A stretch of 48,939 bases of DNA from positions 1 through 48,939 of the IMG/VR virus record IMGVR_UViG_2910123500_000001. One strand, written 5' to 3'. Each line of letters begins with the position of its first letter. Within the stretch, counting starts at the first letter, position 1. The position numbers and the translations under genes are program-made. The DNA is from a virus. Under the pieces are notes generated by a model. The model was not told the origin of the DNA. It saw only the letters and a list, made by a program, of their open reading frames with translations, and did no database searches. Shown here piece by piece: positions 1 to 48,939 of this stretch.

Positions 1-42
1 TTGTGGTTCCACCATTCGAGGGTTCGAGTCCCTTCGTTCGCC
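1..42 (+). tRNA. 3' portion of a tRNA gene that starts upstream of the window; identity not determinable
   Basis: T-arm GAGGG/TTCGAGT/CCCTT at 18-34 and acceptor 3' strand CGTTCGC at 35-41. GTGG-TT-CCAC at 3-12 looks like a long extra arm (class II). The anticodon is not in the window and no CCA is encoded. Confidence 0.55.
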
Positions 43-45
43 CTT
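1..45 (+). repeat. attL core (45-nt direct repeat)
   Basis: 45/45 identity with 48895-48939. The true repeat ends cannot be seen because the window is cut at both copies. Confidence 0.85.
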
Positions 46-3917: not shown

Positions 3918-3936
3918 AGGCGGGAAACCTGGGGGC

Positions 3937-5858: not shown

Positions 5859-5872
5859 GGGCACTCTCTGGG
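5859..5872 (+). promoter_or_regulatory. Late-leader motif variant GGGCACTCTCTGGG
   Basis: Its last base is 21 nt upstream of the small terminase ATG at 5893. Confidence 0.45.
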
Positions 5873-8118: not shown

Positions 8119-8131
8119 GGGAACTCTGAGG
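8119..8131 (+). promoter_or_regulatory. Late-leader motif GGGAACTCTGAGG
   Basis: A 22-nt gap separates its end from the portal ATG. A second, shorter copy GGGCACCTGAG overlaps at 8130-8140. Confidence 0.6.
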
Positions 8132-11676: not shown

Positions 11677-12051
11677 ATGGGACTAACAGGCTTTGAGCTG
11701 GCCCGACGGCTGGCACAGGCAAATGTCGATTACGAGGCGGCCCAAAACCTGATCCGCCAAGTCAGCGCTGCACCTGAGTTGCAGCCACCAAAGGCAGACA
11801 AGCCTGCGGTGGTCATCCCCCACGCCCTGGCGCTGATCAATTCCACCGATTCCGCTGCAGCGGAAAAACTTGTGCCACTACCAGGCATTGGCCCAGCTGC
11901 AGCTCGCAAACTGCTGGAACGGCGGCCAGAGGGAGGTTACGCCTCCCTGGAGCAGGCGGCTGAGCTGAACCCAGAACTGGCCGAACGGCCTTTCAACGTG
12001 AAATGGGATGCGATCGCATCCTGGCAACCCAAAGGAATGCACGATGGCTGA
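11677..12051 (+). CDS. Helix-hairpin-helix (ComEA-like) DNA-binding protein
   Basis: LVPLPGIGPAAARKLLERRPEGGYASLEQ is an HhH motif. Confidence 0.5.
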   Translation: MGLTGFELARRLAQANVDYEAAQNLIRQVSAAPELQPPKADKPAVVIPHALALINSTDSAAAEKLVPLPGIGPAAARKLLERRPEGGYASLEQAAELNPELAERPFNVKWDAIASWQPKGMHDG

Positions 12052-12766
12052 CTTCAACTCATTCTCTAAATCAGCGACCAGAACGACCACGGCCGCCAAC
12101 AGAACCAAAGCTACTGCTAGGCCCAAAGCTAAAGCTGCTGCCAAAACCAAAGCGGCCAAAGCCAAAGCTGCGGAGAAGGCCAAGGCCGCCAAAGCTAAAG
12201 CTGCTGCCAAAACCAAGGCCGCCAAAGCCAAAGCTGCGGAGAAGGCCAAGGCAACCAAAGCTAAAGCTGCTGCCAAAACCAAAGCGGCCAAGGCTAAAGC
12301 TGCTGCCAAAGCCAAAGCAACCAAAGCCAAAGCTGCTGCCAAAACCAAGGCCGCCAAAGCTAAAGCTACGGCCAAAGCCAAAGCTGCCGCCAAAACCAAG
12401 GCCGCCAAAGCTAAAGCTACGGCTAAAGCCAAAGCTGCCAAAGCCAAAGCTACGGCCAAAGCCAAAGCTGCCAAGCCCAAGGCTACTAAGCCCAAGGCCA
12501 CTAAGGCTAAAGCTACTAAGCCCAAGGCCACTAAGGCTAAAGCTACTAAGCCCAAGGCCACTAAGGCTAAGGCCACTAAGGCTAAGGCAACTAAAGCCAC
12601 CAAGCCCAAGGCCACTAAGACCAAGGCTACTAAATCTAAGGCAACGGCTGGCAAGGTCAAGGGTGCTAAGCGGGTCATGACTGCTGGCAAAAAAGGTGGC
12701 AAGGGCGGCGGCGGTGGCGGCGGTGGTCGCACCTATAACCGCGATAGCAAGGGGAGATTCGCCTAA
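12044..12766 (+). CDS. Histone-H1/AlgP-like Lys/Ala-repeat protein
   Basis: About 190 aa of KAKAAAKTKAAKAKAAEKAKAA and KPKATKAKAT repeats, then a G8 run and RTYNRDSKGRFA. ATG at 12044 with an AAAGGAA Shine-Dalgarno sequence. Confidence 0.6.
   Translation: MADFNSFSKSATRTTTAANRTKATARPKAKAAAKTKAAKAKAAEKAKAAKAKAAAKTKAAKAKAAEKAKATKAKAAAKTKAAKAKAAAKAKATKAKAAAKTKAAKAKATAKAKAAAKTKAAKAKATAKAKAAKAKATAKAKAAKPKATKPKATKAKATKPKATKAKATKPKATKAKATKAKATKATKPKATKTKATKSKATAGKVKGAKRVMTAGKKGGKGGGGGGGGRTYNRDSKGRFA
12110..12640. repeat. Coding tandem repeats (about 66-bp then 30-bp units; boundaries approximate)
   Basis: The period is visible in both DNA and protein. The repeats create spurious long ORFs in other frames and on the opposite strand. 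Confidence 0.7.
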
Positions 12767-15968: not shown

Positions 15969-15981
15969 GGGCACTCTGAGG
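15969..15981 (+). promoter_or_regulatory. Late-leader motif GGGCACTCTGAGG
   Basis: Located at the end of the 306-bp head-tail gap, with a 7-nt gap before the ATG at 15989. Confidence 0.55.
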
Positions 15982-23553: not shown

Positions 23554-23771
23554 TGGAATTCACGGCATATCAGACTCTGCAGGGGCAACGGTGGGACGCG
23601 ATCGCTCAGGCGGTCTACGGCTCACCCTATGCCTATGAGGGCATCATTTTCGCTAATCCCCAGTACCGGCACCTGCTACAGCTGCCGGGGGGCGTGGTGC
23701 TGCGCATTCCGGTGGTGGCTCAGACCGAGCCGACGATTCCCAAGGAACTGCTGCCGCCGTGGAAGCGCTAG
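23553..23771 (+). CDS. Tail protein X (LysM-like, P2 gpX-like)
   Basis: YQTLQGQRWDAIAQAVYG...LPGGVVLRIPV pattern. Confidence 0.7.
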   Translation: MEFTAYQTLQGQRWDAIAQAVYGSPYAYEGIIFANPQYRHLLQLPGGVVLRIPVVAQTEPTIPKELLPPWKR

Positions 23772-24232
23772 ACCCTATCAGGGCAGAGCTGTGCTGGCGG
23801 CCCGCTGGGGTTCACCGCACATGGCATGAAGGGATTCGGGTCGAAGTACTTGCAGCCGGGGCAGCCTGCAAAGCGGGATACGGCTGGAGGTGAGGGTGGT
23901 GGGGCAGCTGGCGGGTCGATGATGCAGCGGCAACGCGGGAGCGGCGGCAGGGATGCCCATCGCTCTCGGAACGCCTCACTAGCAGCAAGAAGCTCTGGGC
24001 CAAGATTCTCAAAGACTTTTGTTGCTGCTCGAAGCGCCGCCGCCAATGGCTCAATATTCACTGAAATTCGTAACTGCATCGACCGCCGATGGTGCAGCTT
24101 TCCACCTCGGTATCTGAGCTTGCCGGTAGTCAGCAGGGTGTAAATGCGCTGATACGAAAGCCCAGACTCGGCTCTGTAGGCTGCGATCGCAACCTGGGCC
24201 GAGTCTGGGCTGATTTGGAATAGCTGAGTCAT
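23768..24232 (-). CDS. HTH plus Cys-rich C-terminal domain protein
   Basis: N-terminus AIAAYRAESGLSYQRIYTLLTTGKL is HTH-like. C-terminus is CRC...GCPGCKYFDPNPFMPCAVNP. The ORF extends to 24268. Confidence 0.4.
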   Translation of the reverse strand: MTQLFQISPDSAQVAIAAYRAESGLSYQRIYTLLTTGKLRYRGGKLHHRRSMQLRISVNIEPLAAALRAATKVFENLGPELLAASEAFRERWASLPPLPRCRCIIDPPAAPPPSPPAVSRFAGCPGCKYFDPNPFMPCAVNPSGPPAQLCPDRV

Positions 24233-24303
24233 TACCACGGTTAGGCGGACAATGTGGCGCTCAGTCATGGCGAGTTGATTGAGAGATGTCCAATTCTACC
24301 CAC

Positions 24304-24594
24304 TCACATCGGGTCGATCCCAATAACCAGCGCCTGGTCTAGCCACTGGCTAATCGTCGCTCTGTTGCCGCCGGTGACCATCGCATCAAAGCTCTGCCGC
24401 AGCACCTCTAGCTGGCCAGTATCGTCGCGCCACCCTGGGTAAAAGGCCCAGATCCGGAAATAGGCAGCCAGGTGCGATCGCTCTTCGGCTGTCAGCTCCC
24501 GATCTTCTGTGCAGTAGACCTTTACGGCTTTGGCCAGCTCGCCGCTGGTCTCGTTTCGCCAGTAGACAAGGATGTTTTCCACTATCTCCTCCAA
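24304..24594 (-). CDS. Hypothetical protein
   Basis: 96-aa ORF with a non-ATG (TTG or GTG) start. Confidence 0.35.
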   Translation of the reverse strand: MEEIVENILVYWRNETSGELAKAVKVYCTEDRELTAEERSHLAAYFRIWAFYPGWRDDTGQLEVLRQSFDAMVTGGNRATISQWLDQALVIGIDPM

Positions 24595-24740
24595 ATGAAC
24601 AGATCTGACTGAGCTTTTTTCCAGTCCTGATGGCCAGAGCGAGGGACGTTGACCACAACGGGACCATCAGGGGTTTGAGCGATCATTTCGCGGATGCAGG
24701 GCACCTCACGGATCAAAACGACAGGGGCTTGTGGGGGCAT
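24582..24740 (-). CDS. Small hypothetical protein
   Basis: Internal ATG of the 24582-24839 ORF, 16 nt after the stop codon of the preceding small ORF. Confidence 0.3.
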   Translation of the reverse strand: MPPQAPVVLIREVPCIREMIAQTPDGPVVVNVPRSGHQDWKKAQSDLFIWRR

Positions 24741-24756
24741 AGTTGTAGGTTCAACT

Positions 24757-24897
24757 TTTAGCTTGGCTTGTGATGCGTTGGCGGGTAAGCACGTTGCCGT
24801 TGGCGTCAACTTTGTAGGTGAAGGCCTTGGGGTCGCCACCGAGGAAAAAGTGGGTGACGTAGGCTCTTTGAGTCTCGTTCAAGTCTTCGTAAAACAT
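24757..24897 (-). CDS. Small hypothetical protein (46 aa; below the ORF-track cut-off)
   Basis: Hand translation gives MFYEDLNETQRAYVTHFFLGGDPKAFTYKVDANGNVLTRQRITSQAKS. Confidence 0.25.
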
Positions 24898-24924
24898 ATT
24901 GGGTGAAATAAAGTTGCGGGGAAT

Positions 24925-25374
24925 CTAGGCAGTTCCTTGGGCCTGGCGCACCCAGGCGATCAGCTTTTGCTGCCACTGGCGGTCTCTCTGCTGGTGCAGG
25001 TAGACGCCGATGCCAAACAGCTCGCAGGCTGAGCGAATAGCGTCGGCGGTGGCCCGTTCGATGGGGTCACCCTGGGCCATGTCGTTGCCGTCTCTGCTGA
25101 TCAGCTCGTGCTCGGCTGAACCTGGGGCCTGGCGGGGCACTCCGCAGATGGTTAGGGTGCAGCGGATCACGCAAAACCGCTTGTCTTCATGCACCAGGAA
25201 GATGGGGTCTGAAAATGCGATCGCCCAGTCTTCGGGGCAAATCTGGTCAAGGTAGGCCAGCAGGCTCCTCCAAGGGATGAAGACCCACTGCCCGCCACCG
25301 GGCAGCTTGCGAATCCGGTGAACCTCTGGAGGCAGCTTGGCAGTGAGCTTAGGCAGGACTTCAGTGAGTTTCAT
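24925..25374 (-). CDS. Rad52/DUF1071-like single-strand annealing protein
   Basis: LPGGGQWVFIPWRSLLAYLDQICPEDWAIAF and ATADAIRSACELFGIGVYL resemble conserved Rad52-family segments. Confidence 0.5.
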   Translation of the reverse strand: MKLTEVLPKLTAKLPPEVHRIRKLPGGGQWVFIPWRSLLAYLDQICPEDWAIAFSDPIFLVHEDKRFCVIRCTLTICGVPRQAPGSAEHELISRDGNDMAQGDPIERATADAIRSACELFGIGVYLHQQRDRQWQQKLIAWVRQAQGTA

Positions 25375-25540
25375 TGGTCTTCTCCTGGCGAAAATCTTTG
25401 GTCAGTTCGTCAACAACTCGCGCCTGCTCTTGAAGCCAAACGGCGCGGTGGATGGCCTGCTGCTGGGTGAGTGTCGGATCAGCTTTCCGAAGCCGGTTGG
25501 CTATGGCCTGTGTTTGTCGGGAAACTTGAGGCTCGGTCAT
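25361..25540 (-). CDS. Small protein (59 aa), paralog of the 34322-34453 ORF
   Basis: Hand translation gives MTEPQVSRQTQAIANRLRKADPTLTQQQAIHRAVWLQEQAR.... About 15/31 residues match the other copy. Confidence 0.45.
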   Translation of the reverse strand: MTEPQVSRQTQAIANRLRKADPTLTQQQAIHRAVWLQEQARVVDELTKDFRQEKTNETH

Positions 25541-25602
25541 TTTTCAATTGCTGTAGGGAGTGCTGGAGTGAGGCGAAGGGCGGGGCGGCCCGCCCGTGGG
25601 AT

Positions 25603-26097
25603 TTAGCAGTCAGTTAGCGGCTGCGGGTCGCGCTCGGTCCAGCTCCAGTTCACGGTGTTGGCAGACTGGGTAGCGTAGACAATTTGGCCTTGGCTGTCGC
25701 GGGGGCGTCGGCCCAGTTCGCGCAGGTAGCCCTCCAGATAGGGGCGGTTGAGGAATCGGATTGCATTGCCAAAGGCGGCATCGCAGCTGCCCCAGCAGCG
25801 CCACTCGGTCTCATCCATGACAGCGTCACGCTCGTCGATGGCGATGCGCAGGGTGACCTCCTGAGTGGAGGGTGCGATCGCATTGAGCCGGGCCAGCAGC
25901 TGCTCGATATCAGGCTCGGTGTCGCGGCCAGAGCCACGGTTAATGCCGGGAGCTGCGACGGCGGTAGAACTTGCGATCGCGGGAAATGTTGATACCATTT
26001 GAGTTGAAACTCCATCGATGTGGTTTTCGCAAAACCCCCGCCGACGCCCTGGAAAAGCTGGTGGGGGTTTTGTTGTGTGAGCGGTTAGGTGGCTCAC
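25603..26097 (-). CDS. Hypothetical protein, first gene of the minus-strand cassette
   Basis: An alternative ATG at 25998 has a GGAG Shine-Dalgarno sequence. Divergent from the 26175 gene across a palindromic operator. Confidence 0.4.
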   Translation of the reverse strand: MSHLTAHTTKPPPAFPGRRRGFCENHIDGVSTQMVSTFPAIASSTAVAAPGINRGSGRDTEPDIEQLLARLNAIAPSTQEVTLRIAIDERDAVMDETEWRCWGSCDAAFGNAIRFLNRPYLEGYLRELGRRPRDSQGQIVYATQSANTVNWSWTERDPQPLTDC

Positions 26098-26108
26098 ACC
26101 TCCTATTG

Positions 26109-26155
26109 TCTACAATAGATTGTAGATTGTCAATGCCCTATAATAGGCTATTGAC
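26109..26155. promoter_or_regulatory. Operator/promoter region with palindromes
   Basis: Perfect TCTACAAT-AG-ATTGTAGA at 26109-26126. Imperfect GTCAATGCC...GGCTATTGAC at 26129-26155 encloses TATAAT at 26139-26144. Confidence 0.6.
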
Positions 26156-26174
26156 TAATACTAGTTAACTGTTT

Positions 26175-26450
26175 ATGATTGCCTCACAAAGACTGATAAT
26201 TCGGGAGGCGATTATGACGGCTGCGTTGATGGCGACTATTGATATTTCTGCGTTTTGGCCTGAGGCCAAGACAGTAAACGCTGTGTACGTGGAGTATGGG
26301 CCTAAATTTGGCCTCAATGCTTACACGCTCAAGAAGGCTAAAGAGGGGGATTTGGAGAGCGCAAAGATGGACAACCTGCTGGCTCTGCGACGGCTGTGCA
26401 GCGAATGGGCAGGGCGCGAAGTCTCTCTAGACGAAATTGTCAGGAGCTAG
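26175..26450 (+). CDS. Small Cro/XRE-like regulator (putative)
   Basis: Divergent from the cassette. LNAYTLKKAKEGD...MDNLLALRRLCSEWAGREVSLDEIV is HTH-like. An alternative ATG lies at 26214. Confidence 0.35.
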   Translation: MIASQRLIIREAIMTAALMATIDISAFWPEAKTVNAVYVEYGPKFGLNAYTLKKAKEGDLESAKMDNLLALRRLCSEWAGREVSLDEIVRS

Positions 26451-26521: not shown

Positions 26522-26555
26522 GCACTAGCCCCCGGCACTCGCTGGGGGCTAGTGC
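26522..26555 (+). other. Perfect 12-bp-stem hairpin
   Basis: GCACTAGCCCCC-ggcactcgct-GGGGGCTAGTGC with no T-run. It sits immediately before the motif at 26561. Confidence 0.6.
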
Positions 26556-26560: not shown

Positions 26561-26573
26561 GGGCACTCTGAAG
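26561..26573 (+). promoter_or_regulatory. Late-leader motif GGGCACTCTGAAG
   Basis: A 21-nt gap separates its end from the gpD ATG. Confidence 0.5.
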
Positions 26574-26594: not shown

Positions 26595-27617
26595 ATGCCC
26601 CGCGCCGCCGTCTTTAAGCTCACTTACCTGGGCACCGACATCACCAACGAGATCAACCCGCTGACCCTCCAGATTGCCTACACGGACAACCTGGAGGGGG
26701 AGGCCGATGACCTGGCCATTGCGCTGCTCAACTCTGACCTGCGGTGGCTCGATACGTGGTTGCCCGCCGAGGGTGATCGCGTGGCCTTGGAGCTGGGCTA
26801 TGAGGGTGAGGCGCGTCTAGGGCCGGTGCAGTTTGAGGTGGATGAGCCAGAGTGGTCGGGTATGCCTGACGGGTTCAAGTTGCAGGCGCAGGCGGTGCCG
26901 CTGACCTCCAGTTTGAGGGAGCGCCGCAGTCAGGCTTACGAGAACACGACCCTGCGTGCGATCGCAAGCCGAATTGCTGAAAAGCACGGCCTGGAGCTGG
27001 TTGGCGAGATTCCTAACATCAGGTTCAAGCGCCTGTCACAGTCGGAGCAGACCGATCTCGAGTTTTTGCGCGAGACGGCGGCTGAATACGGCCTGCTGTT
27101 CAAAATTGAGGGCACCACGCGCCTGGTATTTTTTCAAGAGAGCGACCTGGAGGCGGCAGCGCCGGTGCTCACCGTCAAGCGCACTGAGATGGCCAACTAC
27201 CGGCTCAGACGGAGCGCGTCGGGCACCTACAAGGCGGCCACCGTGAGCTACCAGAACGCTGAGAGCGGCGAGTTCATCGAGGTCACGATTGACCTCAACG
27301 GAGCCGAGGTGCCCAAGCCCAAGGATGGGCAGGAGGGTGCGATCGCGAGTGAGTCGATCCTGCGTATCCGCGAACGGGTGGAGAGCCGGGCCCAGGCTCG
27401 ATTAAAAGCGGTGGCTGCCCTCAAGCGGGCCAACAGTGCGCGGGTGGAGCTGGACTTTGAGGCTGAGGGCAATGTGCTCTTTGCGGCGGGCAGCTGCTTC
27501 ACCTTGGAGGGTTTCAAACGGCTCGACGGCAAGTATCTGCTCAGCCGGGTGCGGCACCAGCTCGATAAGGGCCGAGGCTATCGGTGCAGCGTGGAGGCGC
27601 GGAAAGTCGAGGGCTGA
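26595..27617 (+). CDS. Baseplate hub / late control protein D (gpD, VgrG-like)
   Basis: LTYLGTDIT...LQIAYTDNLEGEADDLAIAL...YKAATVSYQN pattern, 340 aa. Confidence 0.8.
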   Translation: MPRAAVFKLTYLGTDITNEINPLTLQIAYTDNLEGEADDLAIALLNSDLRWLDTWLPAEGDRVALELGYEGEARLGPVQFEVDEPEWSGMPDGFKLQAQAVPLTSSLRERRSQAYENTTLRAIASRIAEKHGLELVGEIPNIRFKRLSQSEQTDLEFLRETAAEYGLLFKIEGTTRLVFFQESDLEAAAPVLTVKRTEMANYRLRRSASGTYKAATVSYQNAESGEFIEVTIDLNGAEVPKPKDGQEGAIASESILRIRERVESRAQARLKAVAALKRANSARVELDFEAEGNVLFAAGSCFTLEGFKRLDGKYLLSRVRHQLDKGRGYRCSVEARKVEG

Positions 27618-27623
27618 GCCTCA

Positions 27624-27636
27624 GGGAACTTTAAAG
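27624..27636 (+). promoter_or_regulatory. Weak late-leader motif variant GGGAACTTTAAAG
   Basis: Located between the gpD stop codon and the FHA gene start. Confidence 0.3.
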
Positions 27637-27638
27637 GT

Positions 27639-28262
27639 GTGGCAAGTGTGCCATCGCTCCATCCACCCTCAGCACCAATGGCCAGACTTGCCTGTTATTT
27701 CGTCGCTTCGACCCGCCCGCGCATTCTCGATACGGATCAGGCTCCAGAAGGTAAGTCCCCCTGGACTGTGGGCCGGTCTCCTGAGAGCCAAATCACCTTC
27801 CACAAACCAACCGTCTCCAAAGCTCATGCCCTAATTCGCTACTTTGAAGAGGTAAGGGCTTGGCAGCTTTTGGATTGTGGCAGCCTCAACGGCACGTTCG
27901 TTAATGGCGAGCGGATCGCCCCTTCTCAATGGCGAAACCTGATGGAAGGGGACACAATCGACTTTGGCACCATTGCAGCTCGCGTTCGCATCTCTTTTGA
28001 TGATGATGAAACCCTGCATACCATCGCTGAAGACGAGACGCCAACCTGCAATTTGAAGCCGGCCCTAACTCCGGCTGTTGGTCCAAAGCCAGAGCCAACT
28101 GTTCAACAGGGTGCCGGAGACAAAAGCAAGATGCCGTGGGCGTTGGCTGCGGATGCTCTCGACTGGCTGCAGTCGCCCATCTCTCTGTCGGGAGCAATGT
28201 ACCGACTCCTCGTGTTACTGGCTTTCCTGACGGCTATGGTCGTAGTCGTAATCCACAAATGA
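27639..28262 (+). CDS. FHA-domain protein with a C-terminal transmembrane anchor
   Basis: WTVGRSPESQITFHKPTVSKAHALI...GSLNGTFVNGERI fits FHA. The C-terminal hydrophobic segment is LLVLLAFLTAMVVVVI. Start is GTG at 27639 or ATG at 27678. Confidence 0.7.
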   Translation: MASVPSLHPPSAPMARLACYFVASTRPRILDTDQAPEGKSPWTVGRSPESQITFHKPTVSKAHALIRYFEEVRAWQLLDCGSLNGTFVNGERIAPSQWRNLMEGDTIDFGTIAARVRISFDDDETLHTIAEDETPTCNLKPALTPAVGPKPEPTVQQGAGDKSKMPWALAADALDWLQSPISLSGAMYRLLVLLAFLTAMVVVVIHK

Positions 28263-29344
28263 TTTCAACTCTGGCTGCCGCGATCGCGCTGTGCCCTACT
28301 GCCGCTGCTGCCGTCAATAGCAGGGGGGTGATCTGGCTGTGCAATGAGCCCTTTGCGGCGCTGCTGGGGCACTCCAGAAGCGAAATTGAAGGGCAGGTAT
28401 GTTTGAGCGAACTGGCCCTCCTAGGGGAGCAGGCAGCGGCCCACAAGCAGCATCAGGCGCTGATGGCGGGCAGCGTGGAGAGCTATGAGCTGGACGGCCA
28501 CTGCTGCCGCCCAGACGGACAAAGTTTTTGGATGCATCTGGTGGTGGGGTGCTTCGACCATAGCTACTCGCTTGTGTTTGCCCACAGCATCACCCGGCAT
28601 CAGGAGGTGTCGGCCTTGGAAGTGCTTAAGGATGAGCTGTTGGAGGCAATCCGCTTGCGGCAGTTCGTCCTGTGGTATCAACCCATTGTCCACCTGGCTA
28701 CCGGCAGGATTTTGGCTCAGGAGGCGCTGGTGCGGTGGCAACACCCTAACGGCCTGCGCTACCCAAATTACTTTTTGCCCTTTGCCAGGCACCTGGGGCT
28801 GGAGACCTGGATCTGCCGTATCGTCTTGGGGCTGGCCGCAAAGCAGCTGCGGGCTTGGTCTGATACTGGCGAAACCTGGGCTGTGGCTGTCAATATTGAG
28901 CCCTCAACACTGGAGCTGGTGGCCTTTGAGGAGATGGTCGAGTTTGCAATCGCGCGCTACGGTGCCCCCGCAGACAGGCTGTGGCTAGAGATTGTGGAGA
29001 CTCAAAGTCTCGACATTGAGTCTCTGGTCGATAAGTTGAGGCGGTTGAGCAAGCGCCACCTGTTGGCCATCGACGATTTTGGTGCGGGCTATTCCAATCT
29101 GGGAGCAGTCACCCGCTATCCAGTGCAGGCACTCAAAATCGACAAGCACCTGATCAAAGGGGTGGACCACGATCCGGGCCTGCAAACGGTGGTGGGCACA
29201 GTTATTGTCATGGCTCACGAGTTGGGCCTAAAAGTCGTCGCTGAAGGTATTGAAACCGAGGCGGAGCTGCAGTGGCTTAAGACTTACGGCTGCGATTTCG
29301 GGCAAGGATTCTGGCTGGGCAGACCTGCGGCGGCGAAGCAGTAG
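28259..29344 (+). CDS. PAS-EAL c-di-GMP phosphodiesterase
   Basis: QEALVRW, EIVETQ, AIDDFGAGYSNL, KIDK, AEGIETE and GQGFW motifs. The ATG overlaps the FHA stop codon (ATGA). Confidence 0.85.
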   Translation: MISTLAAAIALCPTAAAAVNSRGVIWLCNEPFAALLGHSRSEIEGQVCLSELALLGEQAAAHKQHQALMAGSVESYELDGHCCRPDGQSFWMHLVVGCFDHSYSLVFAHSITRHQEVSALEVLKDELLEAIRLRQFVLWYQPIVHLATGRILAQEALVRWQHPNGLRYPNYFLPFARHLGLETWICRIVLGLAAKQLRAWSDTGETWAVAVNIEPSTLELVAFEEMVEFAIARYGAPADRLWLEIVETQSLDIESLVDKLRRLSKRHLLAIDDFGAGYSNLGAVTRYPVQALKIDKHLIKGVDHDPGLQTVVGTVIVMAHELGLKVVAEGIETEAELQWLKTYGCDFGQGFWLGRPAAAKQ

Positions 29345-29459
29345 GCAGCAAATCTACGCATGGCTCTGGCGGGCTGACTTAGAAATTCAGTAGTTGTCTC
29401 AATGGCACGGTCTAAAGCGCTACCGATGATAGGTTTAGCCACCTCGCCCCCGCCTCAGT

Positions 29460-30230
29460 ATGCGCCCGTCTACTCCCGCCGCTACGAACTGCCTCGAAGC
29501 TTTGATTGCTTACAAGCAAAACCCTTCAACCGAAGGCCGAAATAAATTGGTACGGCTCAATGCAGGCCTAGTGCGAAAAGTTGCACACCGCATCCTACAG
29601 CAGTGCAATGAGCCCTATGAAGACCTGGAGCAGATTGGTTACCTGGGCCTGATCCGGGCCATCGAGCGCTTCGATCCGACTCAGGGCTGCGCTTTCAGCT
29701 CGTTTGCGGTGCCCTACATTCGGGGGGACATGCTGCACTACCTGCGCGATCGCAGCGGCACCGTCAAAATCCCCCGCCGCTGGCAGGACTTGCAGAAGGA
29801 GGCGCAGAAACTGCAGCCGCAGCTGCAGCGGGTGCTGGGGCGCACGGCTGATGAGACTGAGCTGGCCCAGGCGCTGGGTGTGCCGGTGAGCGAGTGGCAG
29901 GAGGCTAAGTTCTCGAACAAAAATCGTCACCTCCTAAGCCTTGATGCCAGGGTAGGCGGACAGGATGATTCTGCGATTACGCTGGGAGAAACTCTCCCGG
30001 ATGCGAACTACCAAGTAATGCAAAAACTTGAGGAAGATCGGGCGCAACTGCAGCGAGCTATGCAGGGCTTGGAAGAGGGCACGCGCACTGTGATTGAGTT
30101 TGTGTTTTACAACGGTCTATCTCGAAAAGAGGTAGCTAAAAAAATTGGTGTTAGCCCTATGACGGTCAGCCGCAGACTTCAGGAAGGCCTGCAGCAAATG
30201 GCTTCATGCCTGGGCGCTGCTAAGGCATGA
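29460..30230 (+). CDS. Sigma-70 family sigma factor, group 3 (SigF/SigB-like)
   Basis: YEDLEQIGYLGLIRAIERFDPTQGCAFSSFAVPYIRGDMLHYLRDRSGTVKIPRRWQDL, plus the region 4 HTH LSRKEVAKKIGVSPMTVSRRL. Confidence 0.85.
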   Translation: MRPSTPAATNCLEALIAYKQNPSTEGRNKLVRLNAGLVRKVAHRILQQCNEPYEDLEQIGYLGLIRAIERFDPTQGCAFSSFAVPYIRGDMLHYLRDRSGTVKIPRRWQDLQKEAQKLQPQLQRVLGRTADETELAQALGVPVSEWQEAKFSNKNRHLLSLDARVGGQDDSAITLGETLPDANYQVMQKLEEDRAQLQRAMQGLEEGTRTVIEFVFYNGLSRKEVAKKIGVSPMTVSRRLQEGLQQMASCLGAAKA

Positions 30231-30305
30231 AAAAACCGCCCAGGAGAGGCGGCGTGGTGCGGTTTGTATGGGTTTCTCCTACTAAGAACCATGTGTGCCA
30301 GTCGG

Positions 30306-30457
30306 CTCAGGATGCCGCTTAAGCCAATTCAGGATGCTCAGGACGTTTCGCTCAGGATTTTCAGGATAGGACTCTCAGGACGGCTCAGGATGCCCATCCT
30401 GTCGATAATCCTGAGCCGTCCTGAGGGGTTTTCGGATTCCATCCTGAGTATCCTGAG
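30306..30457. repeat. Converging array of (C)TCAGGA(T) 8-mers
   Basis: Seven plus-strand copies (cores at 30307, 30329, 30338, 30352, 30361, 30375, 30385). Four perfect and one degenerate minus-strand copies (30397, 30409, 30419, 30442, 30451). Perfect 18-bp inverted repeat at 30374-30391 / 30408-30425. Confidence 0.85.
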
Positions 30458-30465
30458 CATTTTGC

Positions 30466-32229
30466 CTAGGCTGTGCCACTTACGGCATAGAGGGGGGCAC
30501 CATTCTCAAATCTGCTCAGAATCATTCCCTCTTCAGCCATTCGGTTCAAGACCGCTTTAGCCTCCTCAGCAGAGAGTTTTTTTAGGTCTGTGATCGCACT
30601 CTTGATTTGGTGCCCAGGGACAAATCCGTCTTGTCGTTCTAGGTAAGCGACTACCTTGGCTTCTACCGATTCAGATGTCTGCTGTTGGAAGGCATTCTCT
30701 AGCCGCTGCTGGTCAGTTTGGGGTGCGGCTCCATAGGTGGGTTCAGCATCTTGAGAGGGGCTCGGGTAGGCCATACGACCGGGTACAAGGCAGGGTTTTA
30801 CATCTCCGTCGAACTGAGGGAATGAGCACAGCAACGGCTCACCTTTGACGGCTGCCAGCTGATAGAAACCGCTATCAAGTTTCTTCAATTCTGCCACCTG
30901 CGGCCCGGTCAGAGAATCGACGTGCTTCGAGTACCATGCCGGCATGTGGGAGAAGCCATCGGCGCACCGCTCCGATCCGCAGATGACAGACCAAAGGTTT
31001 TGCAAACTGGCGGCAGAGATGCCCTTGATATCGCTGCCGTTTTGGGTCTGCGACATCAGGGCCAGCATTGCCCCTTGGGCGGCTCCGGTCGCCAGCAGGA
31101 GCTTAATCAGGCTGCTGAACTGTTTGGTCACTTTCTTGTCTTCGTCGGTTTCGGCCTGTGACTCTAGCAGGTCAGTGACGGCCAGGGCCTCGTCTAGCAC
31201 CAGCCAGTGAGTCTCCTTGCACCGGCCATCGAGAATGGCGGCAATCATCGGCTGCACCTCTGCCAGGACAGCAGCGACATCGGCATGGATGTTGAATGCC
31301 CGCAACCGGTAGCCCTTCCAGTGGTGGGGCACGCGATCGCTGTCCTTCAAGGTCAGGTAGGTGACATGCTGAGCGTCTTTCAGCAGGTGCAGCAGCGTGT
31401 TGGTCTTGCCGCCCCTAGACGGTGCCAGCAGCTTCAGGTGCGTCTCTGGGCGCAGCGACAGCACTCCGCGAGGAATGGCAGTTCTGACGGCTGAACTGTC
31501 GTCACAGGGCTGAACCGACTCAGCTGGGACTGCGATCGCACCTAGCCGGGTAGTCGGCCCAATGTTGCCCCCGGTCGGCTGCGGCTCGGGTTCAGGCGTA
31601 GAGTCTGCCGGCAGGGCTGCTTGCTGCTGTGCCCCTGCCCGTAGCCGCTTGAAATCATCCTCACTGGCTAGGACGTACTCAGCCACTTCGGCAGCATCAA
31701 CGGCCATCAGCAGCTCGGGGGTGTGCTTGATGTGTTGCCCGTACAGCTCATGGAACCGGCGCTTTGCCACGCTGTAGGCAAAGTAGCGGTGCTCGTCACT
31801 GGGGAGCTGAGCTAGGGCATGGGCCAGCCTGTTGCCGCAGGTGAGGATCAAGGCGTACTCAGCCTTTTGGGCGGCGCTCATGTAGCTGTAGTCTTCGAGC
31901 TCTGGCAACTCCATCTGAGCACCAGAAGCAGCCCCTAGCATCTCGGCGGTACCGGTATCGCTGAAGGGGATGAGCATCACCCGGCCAGTCTTCTTGGCCT
32001 GGCCCATCACCCCAGCTATGTAGGTCACTACACCGATGCCGATCGGGATGGTGGCCAGCCCGCCAGTCGTGATGGCAGCCAGGCCCCCTAGCGCTAGGCT
32101 GGTCAGCCCCAAGGTCTTGCTCAGATTCCCGGCGGCGCGCTCGGCCTGGGCGTCTTCCACCAGTGATGTCAGACGGCGCTTGAGGACGATCTGAGCGTTT
32201 GAAACTTGCTGCTGAATCTCGGTGCTCAT
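30466..32229 (-). CDS. Membrane-anchored FtsK/SpoIIIE/TraB-like (FtsK-HerA superfamily) ATPase with a C-terminal wHTH
   Basis: N-terminal hydrophobic hairpin, Walker A LLAPSRGGKTNT, Walker B HWLVLDEA, LALMSQTQ...IKGISAASLQN, and a gamma-like C-terminus ...AKAVLNRMAEEGMILSRFENG. Confidence 0.6.
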   Translation of the reverse strand: MSTEIQQQVSNAQIVLKRRLTSLVEDAQAERAAGNLSKTLGLTSLALGGLAAITTGGLATIPIGIGVVTYIAGVMGQAKKTGRVMLIPFSDTGTAEMLGAASGAQMELPELEDYSYMSAAQKAEYALILTCGNRLAHALAQLPSDEHRYFAYSVAKRRFHELYGQHIKHTPELLMAVDAAEVAEYVLASEDDFKRLRAGAQQQAALPADSTPEPEPQPTGGNIGPTTRLGAIAVPAESVQPCDDSSAVRTAIPRGVLSLRPETHLKLLAPSRGGKTNTLLHLLKDAQHVTYLTLKDSDRVPHHWKGYRLRAFNIHADVAAVLAEVQPMIAAILDGRCKETHWLVLDEALAVTDLLESQAETDEDKKVTKQFSSLIKLLLATGAAQGAMLALMSQTQNGSDIKGISAASLQNLWSVICGSERCADGFSHMPAWYSKHVDSLTGPQVAELKKLDSGFYQLAAVKGEPLLCSFPQFDGDVKPCLVPGRMAYPSPSQDAEPTYGAAPQTDQQRLENAFQQQTSESVEAKVVAYLERQDGFVPGHQIKSAITDLKKLSAEEAKAVLNRMAEEGMILSRFENGAPLYAVSGTA

Positions 32230-33104
32230 GCCTGCACCTCCTCATCTTCCAGGTCGGTCAGCCCGGTCAATTTGTAACAGCTCTCGAAGCCGAACACCTC
32301 GATCACCCCGTTGAGCAGCAGGAACACAACGGTGCTGCCGCTGTGCTCAAAAGTGACCAGGAAGCAGCCGATTTCAAAAACGTAGCTGGTCACAATCACC
32401 AGGCCATCGAAGATGTAGTTGTCTACCTCGGCGTACTGAAATTCAGCGTTTCGGATCTTTGCGATCGCTAGAGCTCTGGGGCTGAGGTCATCTACCCGAT
32501 ATTTGCGAACCCGGTCAAGCCTGGCTTTACGAACTTTGATGCTGACCGAGCGGATTGCTTTGGCCTGAAGGATGCCGCTGACCGCAGCTCCCACTAGCGC
32601 GATGTAGAAGTTGGGGTCAGCCCAGACGAGGTAATTGTCGAAGCTGGTGTTGCCGAAAGCTCGGTAGCCCGGCACCCAGCCGAAAGCGAAGTTGGAGCTT
32701 AGGCGGACCAGCTTCAGGGGACTGGGCAGCACTCGGCCCAGCTGAGCCCCATCAGAGACGCCTAGCTTCGGAACGAATCTGACGTCTTCGGCGACCCGGC
32801 CAGAGCCGTAAATCTCGCTGGTGCCGGCGTTGAGCAGCACGAGCAGACTCTCGGTGGTGAGGCCGTAGGCATAGACCATGCCGGCACTGAACAGCAGCAC
32901 CTTGCCGGTGATTTCAATCTTGCCTCTGCCCTTGGCTTCCTCGGGTTCTGTCAGCCAGGCCAGGCCGCGAGCAATCCAAACGATGGGGCGGCCCAGCTGA
33001 GCCAGCAGGGGCGTTTTACTAGAGGCTTTAGGCTTCCAGTTGTTGTCCCTGGTAGCGGTGTCTGCAGGTGTGGTGGTGTCTGCGGGAGGATTAGCTGATT
33101 TCAT
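32226..33104 (-). CDS. Polytopic membrane protein
   Basis: Several hydrophobic helices (VLLFSAGMVYAYGL, FYIALVGAAVSGIL, GLVIVTSYVFEIGCFLV, VVFLLLNGVI). Its stop codon overlaps the ATPase start. Confidence 0.55.
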   Translation of the reverse strand: MKSANPPADTTTPADTATRDNNWKPKASSKTPLLAQLGRPIVWIARGLAWLTEPEEAKGRGKIEITGKVLLFSAGMVYAYGLTTESLLVLLNAGTSEIYGSGRVAEDVRFVPKLGVSDGAQLGRVLPSPLKLVRLSSNFAFGWVPGYRAFGNTSFDNYLVWADPNFYIALVGAAVSGILQAKAIRSVSIKVRKARLDRVRKYRVDDLSPRALAIAKIRNAEFQYAEVDNYIFDGLVIVTSYVFEIGCFLVTFEHSGSTVVFLLLNGVIEVFGFESCYKLTGLTDLEDEEVQA

Positions 33105-33119
33105 CGGTTGAGTCTCCAG

Positions 33120-33626
33120 TTACTTGAGTTGGCCAAACGTGCACATCTTTCCGGCGCTCATGGCGGGCTCGGTGTCGATGGTGATGACCGCGCCATCCTT
33201 AACGGCTGCGACCAAGTGGCCGGATTCCGCATAGAGGGGATACCAGCGCCCCAGCGCGGGGTTGAAAATCGGTGCAGTGGGGTTGAGGCCCCAGTTGATG
33301 AGGTCTTGATCGACGGTGCCGGGGTTGTAGCGAAATCGGTTGAGCCTGACCCCGCAGGTGTGGTCGAGCACGTTGGCCCGCTGGTAGGCGTCTGAGAGTT
33401 GCGCTCGCTGCTGAATCTGGGCTAGCTCGGCCTCGGTTTTTTCCTGAGCTCGCAGCTGAGAGCGCTGCACTGAAACCCGCGTCATTGTCTCGCGCTCGCT
33501 CATGTTGTCCCAGACTGCCAGCGTGTTCTGAGTTCCCAGCAGGCCCATACACGCAGAAAACCCAGCGAGGACTGGCAGGCCCCACCGGCTAACGGCTTTG
33601 TGTTTATCGGTTGGAATGAAATTCAT
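33120..33626 (-). CDS. Signal-anchored protein with coiled-coil and globular domains
   Basis: The ATG at 33626 (MNFIPTDKHK...) was chosen. It has a TM segment WGLPVLAGFSACMGLLG. The longer ORF to 33764 would overlap the upstream gene. Confidence 0.45.
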   Translation of the reverse strand: MNFIPTDKHKAVSRWGLPVLAGFSACMGLLGTQNTLAVWDNMSERETMTRVSVQRSQLRAQEKTEAELAQIQQRAQLSDAYQRANVLDHTCGVRLNRFRYNPGTVDQDLINWGLNPTAPIFNPALGRWYPLYAESGHLVAAVKDGAVITIDTEPAMSAGKMCTFGQLK

Positions 33627-33681
33627 GGCTGTCCCTGAATCACGGCAAAGGCCCCTACCGACAGCAGTAGGGGCGAGGAAG

Positions 33682-33996
33682 CTAGACGCTTGCGTAGCAG
33701 AGGCTTTCTGCGATCGCATTGACCAAGGTGACTGCTTCCCCCCAACTCGTGAGTTCTTCGTCAAGCTGCTGCACCAGAGTCAGCAGTTCGCTGTCGGCGG
33801 TGGGGTAAGCGTCTAGCAGGGCAATGTCTAGGCGCTCTGAGATGCCGTCCTGCTGGACAGCTGATGCGGCATACGCTAGGGCGGCCATCAGGTGCAGGCG
33901 AGTCTCTACGGTGAGGTGCTGCAGGGTGCTGCCGTAACGCTGCTGTAGGGCCTGCACCGAAGGCAGATCGAGGTAATAGGTCAGGCAGTTAGCCAT
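33682..33996 (-). CDS. Hypothetical helical protein
   Basis: 104 aa, preceded by copy A of the 81-nt leader element. Confidence 0.4.
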   Translation of the reverse strand: MANCLTYYLDLPSVQALQQRYGSTLQHLTVETRLHLMAALAYAASAVQQDGISERLDIALLDAYPTADSELLTLVQQLDEELTSWGEAVTLVNAIAESLCYASV

Positions 33997-48894: not shown

Positions 48895-48939
48895 TTGTGG
48901 TTCCACCATTCGAGGGTTCGAGTCCCTTCGTTCGCCCTT
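48895..48939 (+). repeat. attR core (duplicate tRNA 3' fragment)
   Basis: Identical to 1-45. No matching tRNA 5' half (GCGAACG...) lies upstream, so this copy is partial. Confidence 0.8.

What the first reader, a model, noticed from the sequence alone, without database searches (positions are those of the whole stretch)
27639..30230. Accessory operon downstream of gpD: FHA-TM protein, PAS-EAL c-di-GMP phosphodiesterase and a SigF-like sigma factor
Three signalling or regulatory genes sit where a P2/Mu-type tail operon would normally continue. The FHA and EAL genes are translationally coupled (ATGA overlap). The EAL domain keeps its catalytic motifs (EAL, DDFGAGYS, KIDK, EGIETE, QGF), so it is probably an active c-di-GMP phosphodiesterase. 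In Synechocystis, SigF is required for pilA1 expression, type IV pili and motility, and c-di-GMP controls aggregation and phototaxis. A prophage supplying both could rewire pilus, motility or surface behaviour. That could block superinfection through pili or reprogramme the host, and the sigma could also drive late transcription.
Basis: partly seen in the sequence, partly recalled or inferred. Interest (0 to 1): 0.7.

Follow-up and report, generated by a model that had tools for sequence, protein, structure and literature searches.

The report
Phage cassette: FHA anchor, c-di-GMP phosphodiesterase, SigF sigma
A temperate virus integrated in a filamentous cyanobacterium carries, right after its last tail gene, a conserved three-gene set (a membrane-anchored phosphothreonine reader, an enzyme that destroys the signal c-di-GMP, and a copy of the host's pilus/motility sigma factor) that recurs in unrelated cyanobacterial viruses and probably lets the virus switch host surface behaviour.

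Summary
The window is a complete P2-like prophage of Pseudanabaena sp. FACHB-2040, bounded by a 45-nt tRNA-like att repeat. Three same-strand genes follow gpD. The first is a tail-anchored FHA protein (27678-28262). The second is a PAS-EAL protein (28259-29344, ATGA overlap) with every catalytic EAL residue. The third is a full-length SigF-family sigma (29460-30230).

This is not a one-off. gpD-FHA-EAL-sigma recurs in two related phages, with dN/dS of 0.13-0.15, the same as the tail genes. FHA-EAL, or FHA-EAL-sigma, also recurs in at least three unrelated phage backbones. In one of these lineages the sigma is rebuilt as region 2 fused to KilA-N.

The sigma is 60-71% identical to host SigFs and branches outside them. 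Its region 2 is almost unchanged.

No canonical SigF promoters occur in the phage.

Best reading (about 0.45): a mobile host-reprogramming cassette that lowers c-di-GMP and supplies extra SigF, pushing the host toward a piliated, motile, non-aggregated state. Timing and targets are untested. It is a new variant of a known kind.

The parts
1..45 (.). Left copy of the 45-nt exact direct repeat (att core). It reads as the variable arm, T-arm and 3' acceptor strand of a long-arm tRNA.
   Evidence: family D6: 1-45 = 48895-48939, 100% identical; truncated tRNA model match at 1-42, weak, 15.3 bits; source contig length equals window length
48895..48939 (.). Right copy of the att repeat, about 135 nt from the tyrosine integrase gene 47654-48760(-).
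26527..26550 (+). GC-rich hairpin upstream of gpD. In the related phages it is followed by a T-run and so looks like a terminator.
26561..26570 (+). GGGCACTCTG, the phage-specific operon-start motif, 24 nt before the gpD start codon.
   Evidence: Five of 11 hits with at most one mismatch lie within 45 nt upstream of operon-first start codons on the same strand (binomial about 1e-5).
26595..27617 (+). gpD tail protein, the last gene of the P2-type tail operon.
   Evidence: PF05954, 47 bits; phrog_52, 1e-86; 89% identical in L002
27624..27633 (+). Degenerate copy of the operon-start motif (GGGAACTTTA) between gpD and the FHA gene. L002 has GGGAACTCTG at the same place.
27678..28262 (+). Tail-anchored FHA protein of 194 aa. 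The FHA domain is encoded at about nt 27762-27968, a conserved juxtamembrane motif DALDWLQ at 28152-28172, and the C-terminal transmembrane helix at 28197-28253.
28259..29344 (+). PAS-EAL c-di-GMP phosphodiesterase of 361 aa. PAS is encoded at about nt 28292-28606 and EAL at nt 28631-29326. The start codon overlaps the FHA stop codon (ATGA).
29345..29459 (+). 115-nt spacer with a block conserved in three phages (GTAGTTnTCTC...GGCAyGGTCTAAArCGCTAC). It may be an internal promoter or control element for the sigma gene. Its function is unresolved.
   Evidence: no Rfam family
29460..30230 (+). SigF-family (group 3) sigma factor of 256 aa with regions 2, 3 and 4.
30235..30253 (.). GC-rich hairpin between the convergent sigma gene and the minus-strand operon. 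It is scored as a terminator on the minus strand, and an equivalent hairpin follows the sigma gene in L002.

Best explanation
The three genes form a self-contained accessory cassette of temperate cyanophages that takes over two host regulatory layers at once.

Shown by the analysis:
1. The cassette lies inside an att-bounded, apparently complete P2-like prophage, immediately after the terminal tail gene gpD. No + strand terminator separates the genes.
2. The first gene encodes a cytoplasmic FHA domain with intact phosphothreonine-binding residues, held on the membrane by a C-terminal anchor.
3. The second gene is translationally coupled to the first. It encodes a PAS-EAL protein with every residue needed for c-di-GMP hydrolysis.
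4. The third gene encodes a complete SigF-family sigma. Its core-binding and -10-reading region 2 is almost identical to that of host SigFs.
5. The genes are conserved together under purifying selection, and they recur as FHA-EAL or FHA-EAL-sigma in unrelated phage backbones.

Inferred:
- The EAL enzyme lowers cellular c-di-GMP.
- The FHA anchor places or gates the enzyme at the membrane, according to host Ser/Thr-kinase phosphorylation. The phage encodes no recognisable kinase of its own.
- The sigma binds host core RNA polymerase and fires SigF-type promoters, in particular the major pilin gene. As a phage copy, it may escape host control.

In cyanobacteria, low c-di-GMP and active SigF both favour type IV pilus function, motility and a non-aggregated state. 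The predicted net effect is therefore a switch of the infected or lysogenic filament toward a piliated, motile, dispersing state. The cassette follows the phage's own operon-start motif along with gpD, so I think expression together with late genes (on induction or infection) is somewhat more likely than constitutive expression in lysogeny. This is not settled.
For: Prophage context:
- 45-nt terminal direct repeat with tRNA-like sequence, next to an integrase.
- Full head, tail and baseplate gene set.
- HIP1 sequence at 1.1 per kb.
- Source is Pseudanabaena sp. FACHB-2040.

Domain identity and active sites.

Tail anchor: the C-terminal transmembrane helix is conserved in 15 family members.

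Conservation in related phages:
- The Trichocoleus phage L002 has gpD 89%, FHA 58%, EAL 71% and sigma 73% identity. The blocks on both sides of gpD plus cassette are replaced.
- L006 has the same order.
- dN/dS is 0.13 for EAL and 0.15 for sigma, against 0.10-0.14 for tail genes.

Recurrence in other backbones:
- L036: integrase, then FHA-TM, EAL, and sigma region 2 fused to KilA-N.
- L039: FHA-TM then PAS-EAL.
- L010: FHA-TM then EAL.
- L016: a membrane protein, then EAL, then sigma region 2 fused to KilA-N.
- Start/stop overlap of the first two genes recurs in L002, L006, L036 and L016.

Sigma:
- Sigma region 2 (the stretch EPYEDLEQIGYLGLIRAIERF...AFSSFAVPYIRG.MLH.LRDR) is almost unchanged from host SigFs. 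Only 17 of 165 host-conserved columns are changed in both phage sigmas.

Origin:
- The one host sigF locus examined has no EAL or FHA neighbours, so the cassette is not a copied host operon.

Precedent: FHA fused to GGDEF domains exists, so FHA control of c-di-GMP enzymes is known.

Literature:
- SigF drives pilA1 and is autoregulated (PMC2532724).
- SigF1 is needed for pili and competence and suppresses biofilm (PMC11345509).
- In Nostoc, the SigF regulon is essentially pilA (PMC6495340).
- High c-di-GMP gives biofilm and aggregation and inhibits motility; low c-di-GMP allows motility (PMC10124867).
- Loss of a diguanylate cyclase switches on gliding in Leptolyngbya (PMC10581220).
- A Bacillus phage sigma about 62% identical to host SigF reproduces the host sigma's regulon (PMC9429907).
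Against: - Nothing about activity, expression time or targets was measured.
- The phage sigma lies outside the sampled host SigF cluster. It carries shared changes in region 2.4 (F94Y) and region 4.2 (E227K/R, T237S, R242E), so its promoter preference could differ from host SigF.
- In L016 and L036, region 4 is replaced by a KilA-N DNA-binding domain. That argues these sigmas can evolve toward non-host promoters.
- The cassette is preceded by the phage's own operon-start motif GGGCACTCTG, not by a recognisable independent promoter. It may therefore serve the lytic programme rather than host behaviour.
- FHA-TM also occurs without EAL or sigma (L037, L040). Its primary job may be something else.
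- The host genome was not available. The presence of a host SigF and its identity to the phage copy are not shown.
Confidence: 0.45

Rival explanations
1. The sigma is mainly a phage transcription factor. It directs host RNA polymerase to phage middle or late operons, possibly those marked by GGGCACTCTGrGGG. It may also drive its own gene, as host SigF does. EAL and FHA would play a supporting role.
For: - The motif sits 10-45 nt upstream of the first start codon of the terminase, portal, neck/tail (15989), baseplate and gpD operons. Variants occur before the FHA gene and, with a 2-nt insertion, in the conserved block before the sigma gene.
- GGGCAC resembles the GGGTA(A/T) -10 element of SigB/SigF-type promoters (own knowledge; GGTAA for SigF in PMC2532724).
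- Both phage sigmas share F94Y in region 2.4 and three region 4.2 changes.
- The sigma region 2 plus KilA-N chimeras show these sigmas being retargeted.
- L035 has a SigF-like sigma right after its terminase gene.
Against: - There are no canonical SigF promoters in the phage: 0 exact matches, and 1 relaxed match against 4.0 +/- 2.0 in shuffles.
- The motif has no conserved upstream (-35-like) partner.
- Region 2 is almost identical to host SigFs, which predicts the host-type -10 element.
- The motif is absent from the other cassette-bearing phages.
- L010 and L039 carry FHA-EAL but have no sigma gene in the available flanking sequence.
Confidence: 0.22
2. The cassette is a superinfection-exclusion or receptor-modulation module. 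By altering pilus number, dynamics or surface polysaccharide, it stops other phages from adsorbing to the lysogen.
For: - Phages commonly encode inhibitors of type IV pilus assembly for this purpose (PMC11461919; review PMC11656802, both listed).
- SigF and c-di-GMP both act on pili and exopolysaccharide (PMC2532724, PMC10124867).
- In L036 and L016 the cassette lies next to the integrase, a typical place for lysogenic-conversion genes.
- FHA-TM occurs alone in some phages. A membrane-anchored protein could target the pilus machine directly.
Against: - The predicted direction is toward more functional pili, not fewer: an active phosphodiesterase plus an intact, host-like sigma.
- No similarity to any known pilus inhibitor or defence protein was found.
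- In the window the cassette follows a structural gene and the late-operon motif. It has no evident lysogeny promoter.
Confidence: 0.12
3. The cassette is a counter-defence. The EAL enzyme destroys c-di-GMP used as an immune signal, for example by CD-NTase/STING-type systems. The sigma and FHA protein would secure phage transcription.
For: - Phages are known to degrade or sequester cyclic-nucleotide immune signals, and bacterial STING effectors bind c-di-GMP (own knowledge, not tested here).
- EAL genes occur on at least 18 further IMG/VR viral contigs.
Against: - This does not explain the tight linkage to a tail-anchored FHA protein or to a SigF-type sigma.
- L010 carries a GGDEF gene (a c-di-GMP synthase domain) as well as the EAL. 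That fits signalling control better than signal destruction.
- No match to known defence or anti-defence families.
- No such immune system is known here for the host.
Confidence: 0.07

Closest known systems
Phage-encoded homologues of sporulation sigma factors SigF/SigG in Bacillus phages (Eldridge g169, SP10 g120, Goe3 g157; PMC9429907)
   Same: A phage carries a copy of a host alternative group-3 sigma. When the copy stays about 60% or more identical to the host sigma, it reproduces the host regulon and changes a host life-style decision. The sigma here is 60-71% identical to host SigFs.
   Different: The host phylum is different, as is the regulon: pili and motility rather than sporulation. 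Here the sigma is linked to a c-di-GMP phosphodiesterase and an FHA membrane anchor, in a cassette that moves between phages. Some versions replace region 4 with KilA-N.
Cyanobacterial SigF (Synechocystis Slr1564; S. elongatus SigF1; Nostoc punctiforme SigF)
   Same: It scores above the curated cut-off of the cyanobacterial SigF model. It has the same length and regions, and region 2 is almost identical.
   Different: It is phage-borne. It branches outside 118 host SigFs, which are about 81% identical to each other against 60-71% to the phage copies. It has shared substitutions in regions 2.4 and 4.2. Its genomic neighbours differ entirely from those of a host sigF.
Stand-alone and sensor-linked EAL phosphodiesterases with solved structures (TBD1265 2r6o/3n3t, MucR 5m1t, RocR 3sy8, DosP)
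   Same: It has the full catalytic, metal-binding and substrate-binding residue set and the loop-6 motif. Sequence matches range from E=2.5e-44 (MucR) to 1e-27 (RocR). The sensor domain followed by EAL resembles DosP.
   Different: It has no GGDEF partner domain. It is encoded by a phage and translationally coupled to a tail-anchored FHA protein. Its N-terminal domain has close relatives only in the related phages.
Small FHA regulators and FHA-GGDEF proteins (OdhI/GarA; FHA-GGDEF 6hbz/6hc1; T6SS TagH/Fha1)
   Same: It has the same phosphothreonine-binding residues. FHA coupled to c-di-GMP enzymes has precedent as fused proteins.
   Different: Here the FHA is a separate protein of about 190 aa with a C-terminal membrane anchor. 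It belongs to a small family of about a dozen 50%-identity clusters. All eight genomic contexts examined (windows, L002, L006, L010, L036, L037, L039, L040) are phage-like.
P2-type accessory ('moron') genes such as old, tin and fun(Z), and phage-encoded pilus inhibitors (e.g. PlzR, PMC11461919)
   Same: These are non-structural genes inserted at operon ends or near int in temperate phages. They change host phenotype, and pili are a frequent target.
   Different: There is no sequence relationship. The components here are host-type signalling and transcription proteins rather than small dedicated inhibitors. Expression in lysogeny has not been shown.

Membership tests
EAL-domain c-di-GMP phosphodiesterase (catalytically competent class) | EAL domain HMM above the curated threshold | tested here: met
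   PF00563 scores 202.6 bits against a cut-off of 31.3, covering residues 125-356
EAL-domain c-di-GMP phosphodiesterase (catalytically competent class) | Catalytic, metal and substrate residues (E..R of EALxR, N, ExxE, DD, K, EGxE, Q) and loop 6 DFG(T/A)GYS | tested here: met
   E155, R159, N212, E244/E247, D272/D273, K293, E329/E332, Q349 and DDFGAGYS are present. They align with TBD1265 and MucR and are conserved in five phage EALs.
EAL-domain c-di-GMP phosphodiesterase (catalytically competent class) | Hydrolysis of c-di-GMP to pGpG | not testable with these tools
   Requires an enzyme assay
Cyanobacterial SigF (group 3 sigma-70, NCBIfam NF005644) | Family HMM above the curated cut-off; regions 2, 3 and 4 present | tested here: met
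   366.4 bits against a cut-off of 261. Sigma70_r2, r3 and r4 are all above their thresholds.
Cyanobacterial SigF (group 3 sigma-70, NCBIfam NF005644) | Groups within the clade of chromosomal SigF orthologues | tested here: not met
   The window and L002 sigmas pair together outside 118 host SigFs in the NJ tree. The split of hosts versus phage sigmas has 96/100 bootstrap support. Caveats: no independent outgroup, and long-branch effects are possible.
Cyanobacterial SigF (group 3 sigma-70, NCBIfam NF005644) | Recognises TAGGC-N15-GGTAA promoters (pilA1, sigF) | not testable with these tools
   Only indirect evidence: region 2 is almost identical to hosts, and no such promoters occur in the phage itself.
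FHA phosphothreonine-binding domain | Domain HMM above threshold and conserved G-R, S-x-x-H and N-G-T/S residues | tested here: met
   PF00498 scores 66.3 bits against 20.7. GR33, S47/H50 and N71-G-T73 align with OdhI/GarA.
PAS sensor domain | Domain HMM above the curated threshold | tested here: inconclusive
   TIGR00229 scores 27.4 against 22.9 and passes. Pfam PAS_9 scores 25.4 against 27 and fails. The homologous L039 protein has clear PAS hits and aligns across this region.
P2-type tail operon (FI-FII-T-U-X-D) | gpD homologue as the terminal gene after sheath, tube, tape measure, gpU and gpX | tested here: met
   Sheath 18225, tube 19734, tape measure 20838, gpU 23074, gpX 23553 and gpD 26595. 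A 2.8-kb block, mostly on the minus strand, is inserted between X and D.
Lysogenic-conversion 'moron' | Own promoter and terminator; expressed from the repressed prophage | tested here: inconclusive
   No sigma-70-like promoter lies directly upstream. The nearest is at 26151-26179, before the 91-aa ORF. A hairpin follows the sigma gene. Expression cannot be tested here.
Known anti-phage defence systems (PADLOC) | Match to a defence-system protein model | tested here: not met
   FHA and EAL have no hits. The sigma shows only generic sigma-domain similarity to MzaA, at 32.7 bits.

The most novel reading that the evidence does not exclude
The trio is a horizontally mobile 'signalling take-over' cassette specific to temperate cyanophages. 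A phage-only family of tail-anchored FHA adaptors reads host Ser/Thr phosphorylation and gates a partner c-di-GMP phosphodiesterase at the membrane. A phage lineage of SigF-derived sigmas redirects RNA polymerase; in some phages it is rebuilt as a sigma-region-2/KilA-N chimera, a sigma architecture that one literature search for KilA-N plus sigma factor did not find. Together these let the virus decide when a filament becomes piliated, motile or competent, or leaves an aggregate.
Probability: 0.3. Interest if true: 0.8.

Novelty: new variant of a known kind. Interest (0 to 1): 0.64.

Why it matters
Very little is known about what temperate phages do to filamentous, mat- and biofilm-forming cyanobacteria. 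Here a phage carries copies of the two best-established controllers of cyanobacterial surface behaviour, SigF and c-di-GMP turnover. They are wired together with a phosphothreonine reader, and the same wiring recurs in unrelated phages.

If the cassette works as proposed, prophage induction or lysogeny would directly alter pili, gliding, aggregation and probably natural competence. That has consequences for bloom and mat dynamics and for gene flow.

It also offers three things:
- a natural, compact tool for lowering c-di-GMP and forcing the SigF regulon;
- a new small protein family (tail-anchored FHA);
- a sigma/KilA-N chimera that bears on how sigma factors can be re-targeted.

The host is a culture-collection strain, so the predictions are directly testable.

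Tried and rejected
- DNA similarity to 50,697 GenBank phage records: no match.
- Exact-protein look-ups of the window's own sigma and FHA in the assembly index: not on record.
- Genome-collection scan with gpD: found only the Trichocoleus phage. The host genome is not a species representative, so the attB tRNA and the host's own SigF could not be examined.
- Canonical SigF promoter TAGGC-N13-17-GGTAA: 0 hits. The relaxed version gave 1 hit against 4.0 expected. The idea that late operons carry classical SigF promoters is rejected.
- A c-di-GMP riboswitch or any other Rfam family in or around the cassette: none. Only chance microRNA-like hits on a palindrome.
- ARAGORN: no complete tRNA in the window.
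- A phage-encoded Ser/Thr kinase or phosphatase as FHA partner: none found among the ORFs of unknown or accessory function scanned with Pfam.
- Origin from a host FHA-EAL-sigF operon: the one host sigF locus examined has housekeeping neighbours.
- Known defence systems: none.
- Pseudogene or hitch-hiker status: rejected by dN/dS of 0.13-0.15 and by recurrence.
- IMG/VR contigs with EAL genes: none had an adjacent sigma or FHA.
- Neighbours of FHA-TM in the FHA-only phages: no Pfam matches.
- Literature searches for cyanophage or prophage EAL, SigF, or KilA-N-sigma fusions: no precedent in the held library.


Full report
**1. What is in the sequence**

Four same-strand ORFs fill 26595-30230.

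- 26595-27617 is gpD (PF05954 at 47 bits; phrog_52 at 1e-86).
- The next ORF is an FHA protein. Its longest frame starts at GTG 27639. The N-terminus MA(R/K)LACYF is conserved in all homologues, and the 194-aa public model agrees, so the start is ATG 27678.
- The FHA stop codon overlaps the start of a 361-aa EAL protein as ATGA at 28259-28262.
- After a 115-nt spacer comes a 256-aa sigma factor, at 29460-30230.

Pfam and NCBIfam confirm each domain:

| Domain | Score (bits) | Cut-off (bits) |
|---|---|---|
| FHA (Pfam) | 66 | 20.7 |
| EAL (Pfam) | 203 | 31.3 |
| PAS (TIGR00229) | 27.4 | 22.9 |
| PAS_9 (Pfam) | 25.4 | 27 |
| Cyanobacterial SigF (NF005644) | 366 | 261 |

Sigma regions 2, 3 and 4 are all present.

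**2. Are the proteins likely to be active?**

- *EAL domain.* It aligns with the characterised phosphodiesterases MucR and TBD1265. It keeps E155 and R159 (EALVRW), N212, E244/E247, D272/D273 within DDFGAGYS, K293, E329/E332 and Q349. These columns are also conserved in four other phage EALs.
- *FHA domain.* It keeps the phosphothreonine-binding G-R33, S47-x-x-H50 and N71-G-T73, aligned with OdhI/GarA.
- *Membrane anchor.* The last 21 residues of the FHA protein contain a strongly hydrophobic 19-mer, with two residues after it. The protein is therefore tail-anchored, with the FHA domain in the cytoplasm.
- *Sigma.* It retains almost all of region 2 as found in host SigFs. Only 17 of 165 host-conserved columns differ in both phage copies. 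These include F94Y in region 2.4 and E227K/R, T237S and R242E around the region 4.2 helix-turn-helix.

**3. Context**

The window equals a whole 48,939-bp contig of Pseudanabaena sp. FACHB-2040.

- Its two ends are an exact 45-nt direct repeat. The repeat reads as the variable arm, T-arm and acceptor strand of a long-arm tRNA. The truncated tRNA model match is weak.
- A tyrosine integrase lies next to the right copy.
- HIP1 (GCGATCGC) occurs 1.1 times per kb.
- The element encodes terminase, portal, capsid, sheath, tube, tape measure, gpU and gpX. It also encodes baseplate V/W/J/I at 143-3885 on the minus strand and a replication protein.

It is therefore an apparently complete P2-like temperate myovirus delimited by att sites, and the three genes lie inside it.

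gpD is the terminal gene of the P2 FI-FII-E-T-U-D operon (established knowledge of P2).

Between gpX and gpD there is an inserted block, mostly on the minus strand, that includes a Rad52-like gene. gpD therefore needs its own transcription signal. No + strand terminator-like site lies between gpD and the end of the sigma gene, and a GC-rich hairpin follows the sigma gene.

**4. Conservation in relatives**

A Trichocoleus MAG contig (L002/L005) and Logan contigs (L003, L004, L006) carry the same order: tube, tape measure, gpU, gpX, a variable block, then gpD, FHA, EAL and sigma.

| Protein | Identity to the window (L002) |
|---|---|
| gpD | 89% |
| FHA | 58% |
| EAL | 71% |
| Sigma | 73% |

The blocks on both sides of gpD plus cassette are non-homologous, for example DdrB-like in place of Rad52-like.

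dN/dS is 0.13 for EAL and 0.15 for sigma. This is indistinguishable from tape measure, gpU, gpX and gpD at 0.10-0.14. dS is saturated for FHA. The genes are therefore maintained by selection, not decaying cargo.

**5. The cassette is mobile**

The FHA-TM protein has only three full-length relatives in the 5.8-billion-protein index. A profile search of 1.84 billion representatives finds about a dozen small (165-200 aa) family members. All share the same N-terminus, FHA residues, acidic linker and C-terminal anchor.

Their neighbourhoods are all phage-like:

| Locus | Arrangement |
|---|---|
| L036 | integrase, FHA-TM, EAL (overlapping), then a 287-aa protein with sigma region 2 fused to KilA-N |
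| L039 | FHA-TM then PAS-EAL |
| L010 | FHA-TM then EAL (overlapping); a small GGDEF gene elsewhere on the contig |
| L037/L038 and L040/L041 | FHA-TM alone |
| L016 (a relative of L036) | two other small membrane-type proteins in place of FHA-TM, then EAL and the sigma/KilA-N gene |

The closest EAL relatives are likewise these phage proteins. After them, identity drops to 45% or less, to generic bacterial EALs that lack the N-terminal domain.

The one host sigF locus examined sits among housekeeping genes without EAL or FHA. Generic EAL genes occur on 18 IMG/VR contigs, none with an adjacent sigma or FHA. One further cyanophage-like contig has a 37%-identical SigF-like sigma on its own.

The repeated, ordered and often overlapping arrangement in different backbones is the strongest argument that the genes work together.

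**6. Where the sigma comes from**

Its nearest non-phage relatives are SigFs of Leptolyngbya-like cyanobacteria, at 60-71% identity. Those host proteins are about 81% identical to one another.

In a neighbour-joining tree the window and L002 sigmas pair together and lie outside all 118 host sequences. With the L035 sigma added, the split between hosts and phage sigmas has 96/100 bootstrap support. Pairing of the two cassette sigmas alone drops to 47/100.

There is no independent outgroup and long-branch effects are possible. Even so, this is not a recently captured ordinary host paralogue.

**7. Promoters**

The Synechocystis SigF promoter is TAGGC (-32) and GGTAA (-12) (PMC2532724). It has no exact match in the window. 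A relaxed version gives 1 hit against 4.0 +/- 2.0 in shuffles.

The phage instead has its own motif, GGGCACTCTG(r)GGG.

- Five of the 11 hits with at most one mismatch lie 10-45 nt upstream of the first start codon of the terminase, portal, 15989, baseplate and gpD operons, always on the coding strand. The binomial probability is about 1e-5.
- L002 has three copies before gpD and one between gpD and FHA. The window has a degenerate copy at the latter place.
- The motif has no conserved upstream partner. It is absent from the other cassette-bearing phages.

It marks gpD plus cassette as part of the same regulon as the structural operons. What reads the motif is unknown.

The spacer before the sigma gene contains a block conserved in three phages. 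No Rfam family, and in particular no c-di-GMP riboswitch, matches.

**8. Most likely mechanism**

*Shown:* the anatomy, intact active sites, coupling, purifying selection and mobility.

*Inferred:*
- The EAL enzyme lowers c-di-GMP.
- The FHA anchor tethers or gates it at the membrane in response to host Ser/Thr phosphorylation. The phage has no recognisable kinase, and FHA-GGDEF fusions show that this logic exists.
- The sigma loads onto host core polymerase and fires SigF-type promoters.

Published work shows the following:
- SigF drives the major pilin gene and is needed for pili, motility and competence, and it suppresses biofilm (PMC2532724, PMC11345509, PMC6495340).
- High c-di-GMP causes aggregation and blocks motility, while low c-di-GMP permits it (PMC10124867).
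- Loss of one diguanylate cyclase switches on gliding in Leptolyngbya (PMC10581220).

Both arms therefore point the same way, toward a piliated, motile, non-aggregated filament. The Bacillus precedent shows that a phage sigma about 62% identical to the host's reproduces the host regulon (PMC9429907).

I put this at about 0.45. The rivals are:
- a phage-promoter sigma, 0.22;
- superinfection exclusion, 0.12;
- counter-defence, 0.07 (no PADLOC match).

A remainder is left for something not yet thought of.

**9. Novelty and verdict**

Phage-borne copies of host sigmas and stray EAL genes on viral contigs are known kinds of thing. What appears to be new:
- the conserved, mobile three-part cassette;
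- the phage-restricted tail-anchored FHA family;
- the SigF lineage in cyanophages, including sigma-region-2/KilA-N chimeras.

Five literature searches found no description of any of these.

I rate it a new variant of a known kind, with interest 0.64. The anatomy is solid and the strain is available for experiments. The function, timing and targets remain inference.

Noticed in passing
window 30306-30458: A dense array of 7 direct and 5 inverted copies of (C/T)TCAGGA(T/C), including perfect 18-nt palindrome arms CTCAGGACGGCTCAGGAT / ATCCTGAGCCGTCCTGAG. It lies between the convergent sigma gene and the 587-aa minus-strand gene. It is absent from the related phage L002. It looks like an iteron, operator or centromere-like array.
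   Followed up: partly
window 3447-3456(-), 5859-5868, 8119-8128, 15969-15978, 26561-26570; L002 6879, 7017, 7091, 8153: The motif GGGCACTCTG(r)GGG lies 10-45 nt upstream of the first start codon of the structural operons, with no conserved -35-like partner. It is a candidate late-operon control element of this phage group. The factor that reads it is unknown.
   Followed up: partly
L016 2721-3587 and L036 9355-10218: Proteins of 287-288 aa in which a SigF-like sigma region 2 (about 36% identical to the window sigma) is fused to a C-terminal KilA-N DNA-binding domain in place of region 4. Each lies directly after an EAL gene. One literature search for such an architecture returned nothing.
   Followed up: partly
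L010 11669-12169: A phage-like contig with FHA-TM and EAL also encodes a 166-aa stand-alone GGDEF protein (RPGGDEF motif). That phage therefore carries both a c-di-GMP-making and a c-di-GMP-breaking domain.
   Followed up: no
window 23768-26097(-) versus L002 3571-5302(-): The block inserted between gpX and gpD is swapped between the two related phages. The window has a Rad52/22-like single-strand annealing protein (24925-25374). L002 has a DdrB-like protein at the equivalent place.
   Followed up: no
window 12003-12766: An ORF after the major capsid gene is made of 33-nt and 15-nt tandem repeats that encode Lys/Ala/Pro/Thr-rich (KAKA/KPKATK) repeats. It is strongly A-skewed.
   Followed up: no
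window 3829-4809(+) and 4888-5280(+): A second tyrosine recombinase (phrog_1, 6e-41) lies beside the baseplate genes, in addition to the att-proximal integrase. It is followed by an HU-family DNA-binding protein.
   Followed up: no
window 30466-33764(-): Three consecutive minus-strand genes (587, 292 and 214 aa), convergent with the cassette, have no match in Pfam, NCBIfam (first two), PHROGs or PADLOC. L002 has a different set at this place, starting with an M23 peptidase.
   Followed up: partly
L035 7962-8651: An IMG/VR cyanophage-like contig (HIP1-rich) encodes a 229-aa SigF-like sigma, 37% identical, shortly after its terminase gene. It has no EAL or FHA nearby. SigF-type sigmas therefore occur in more than one cyanophage lineage.
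   Followed up: partly
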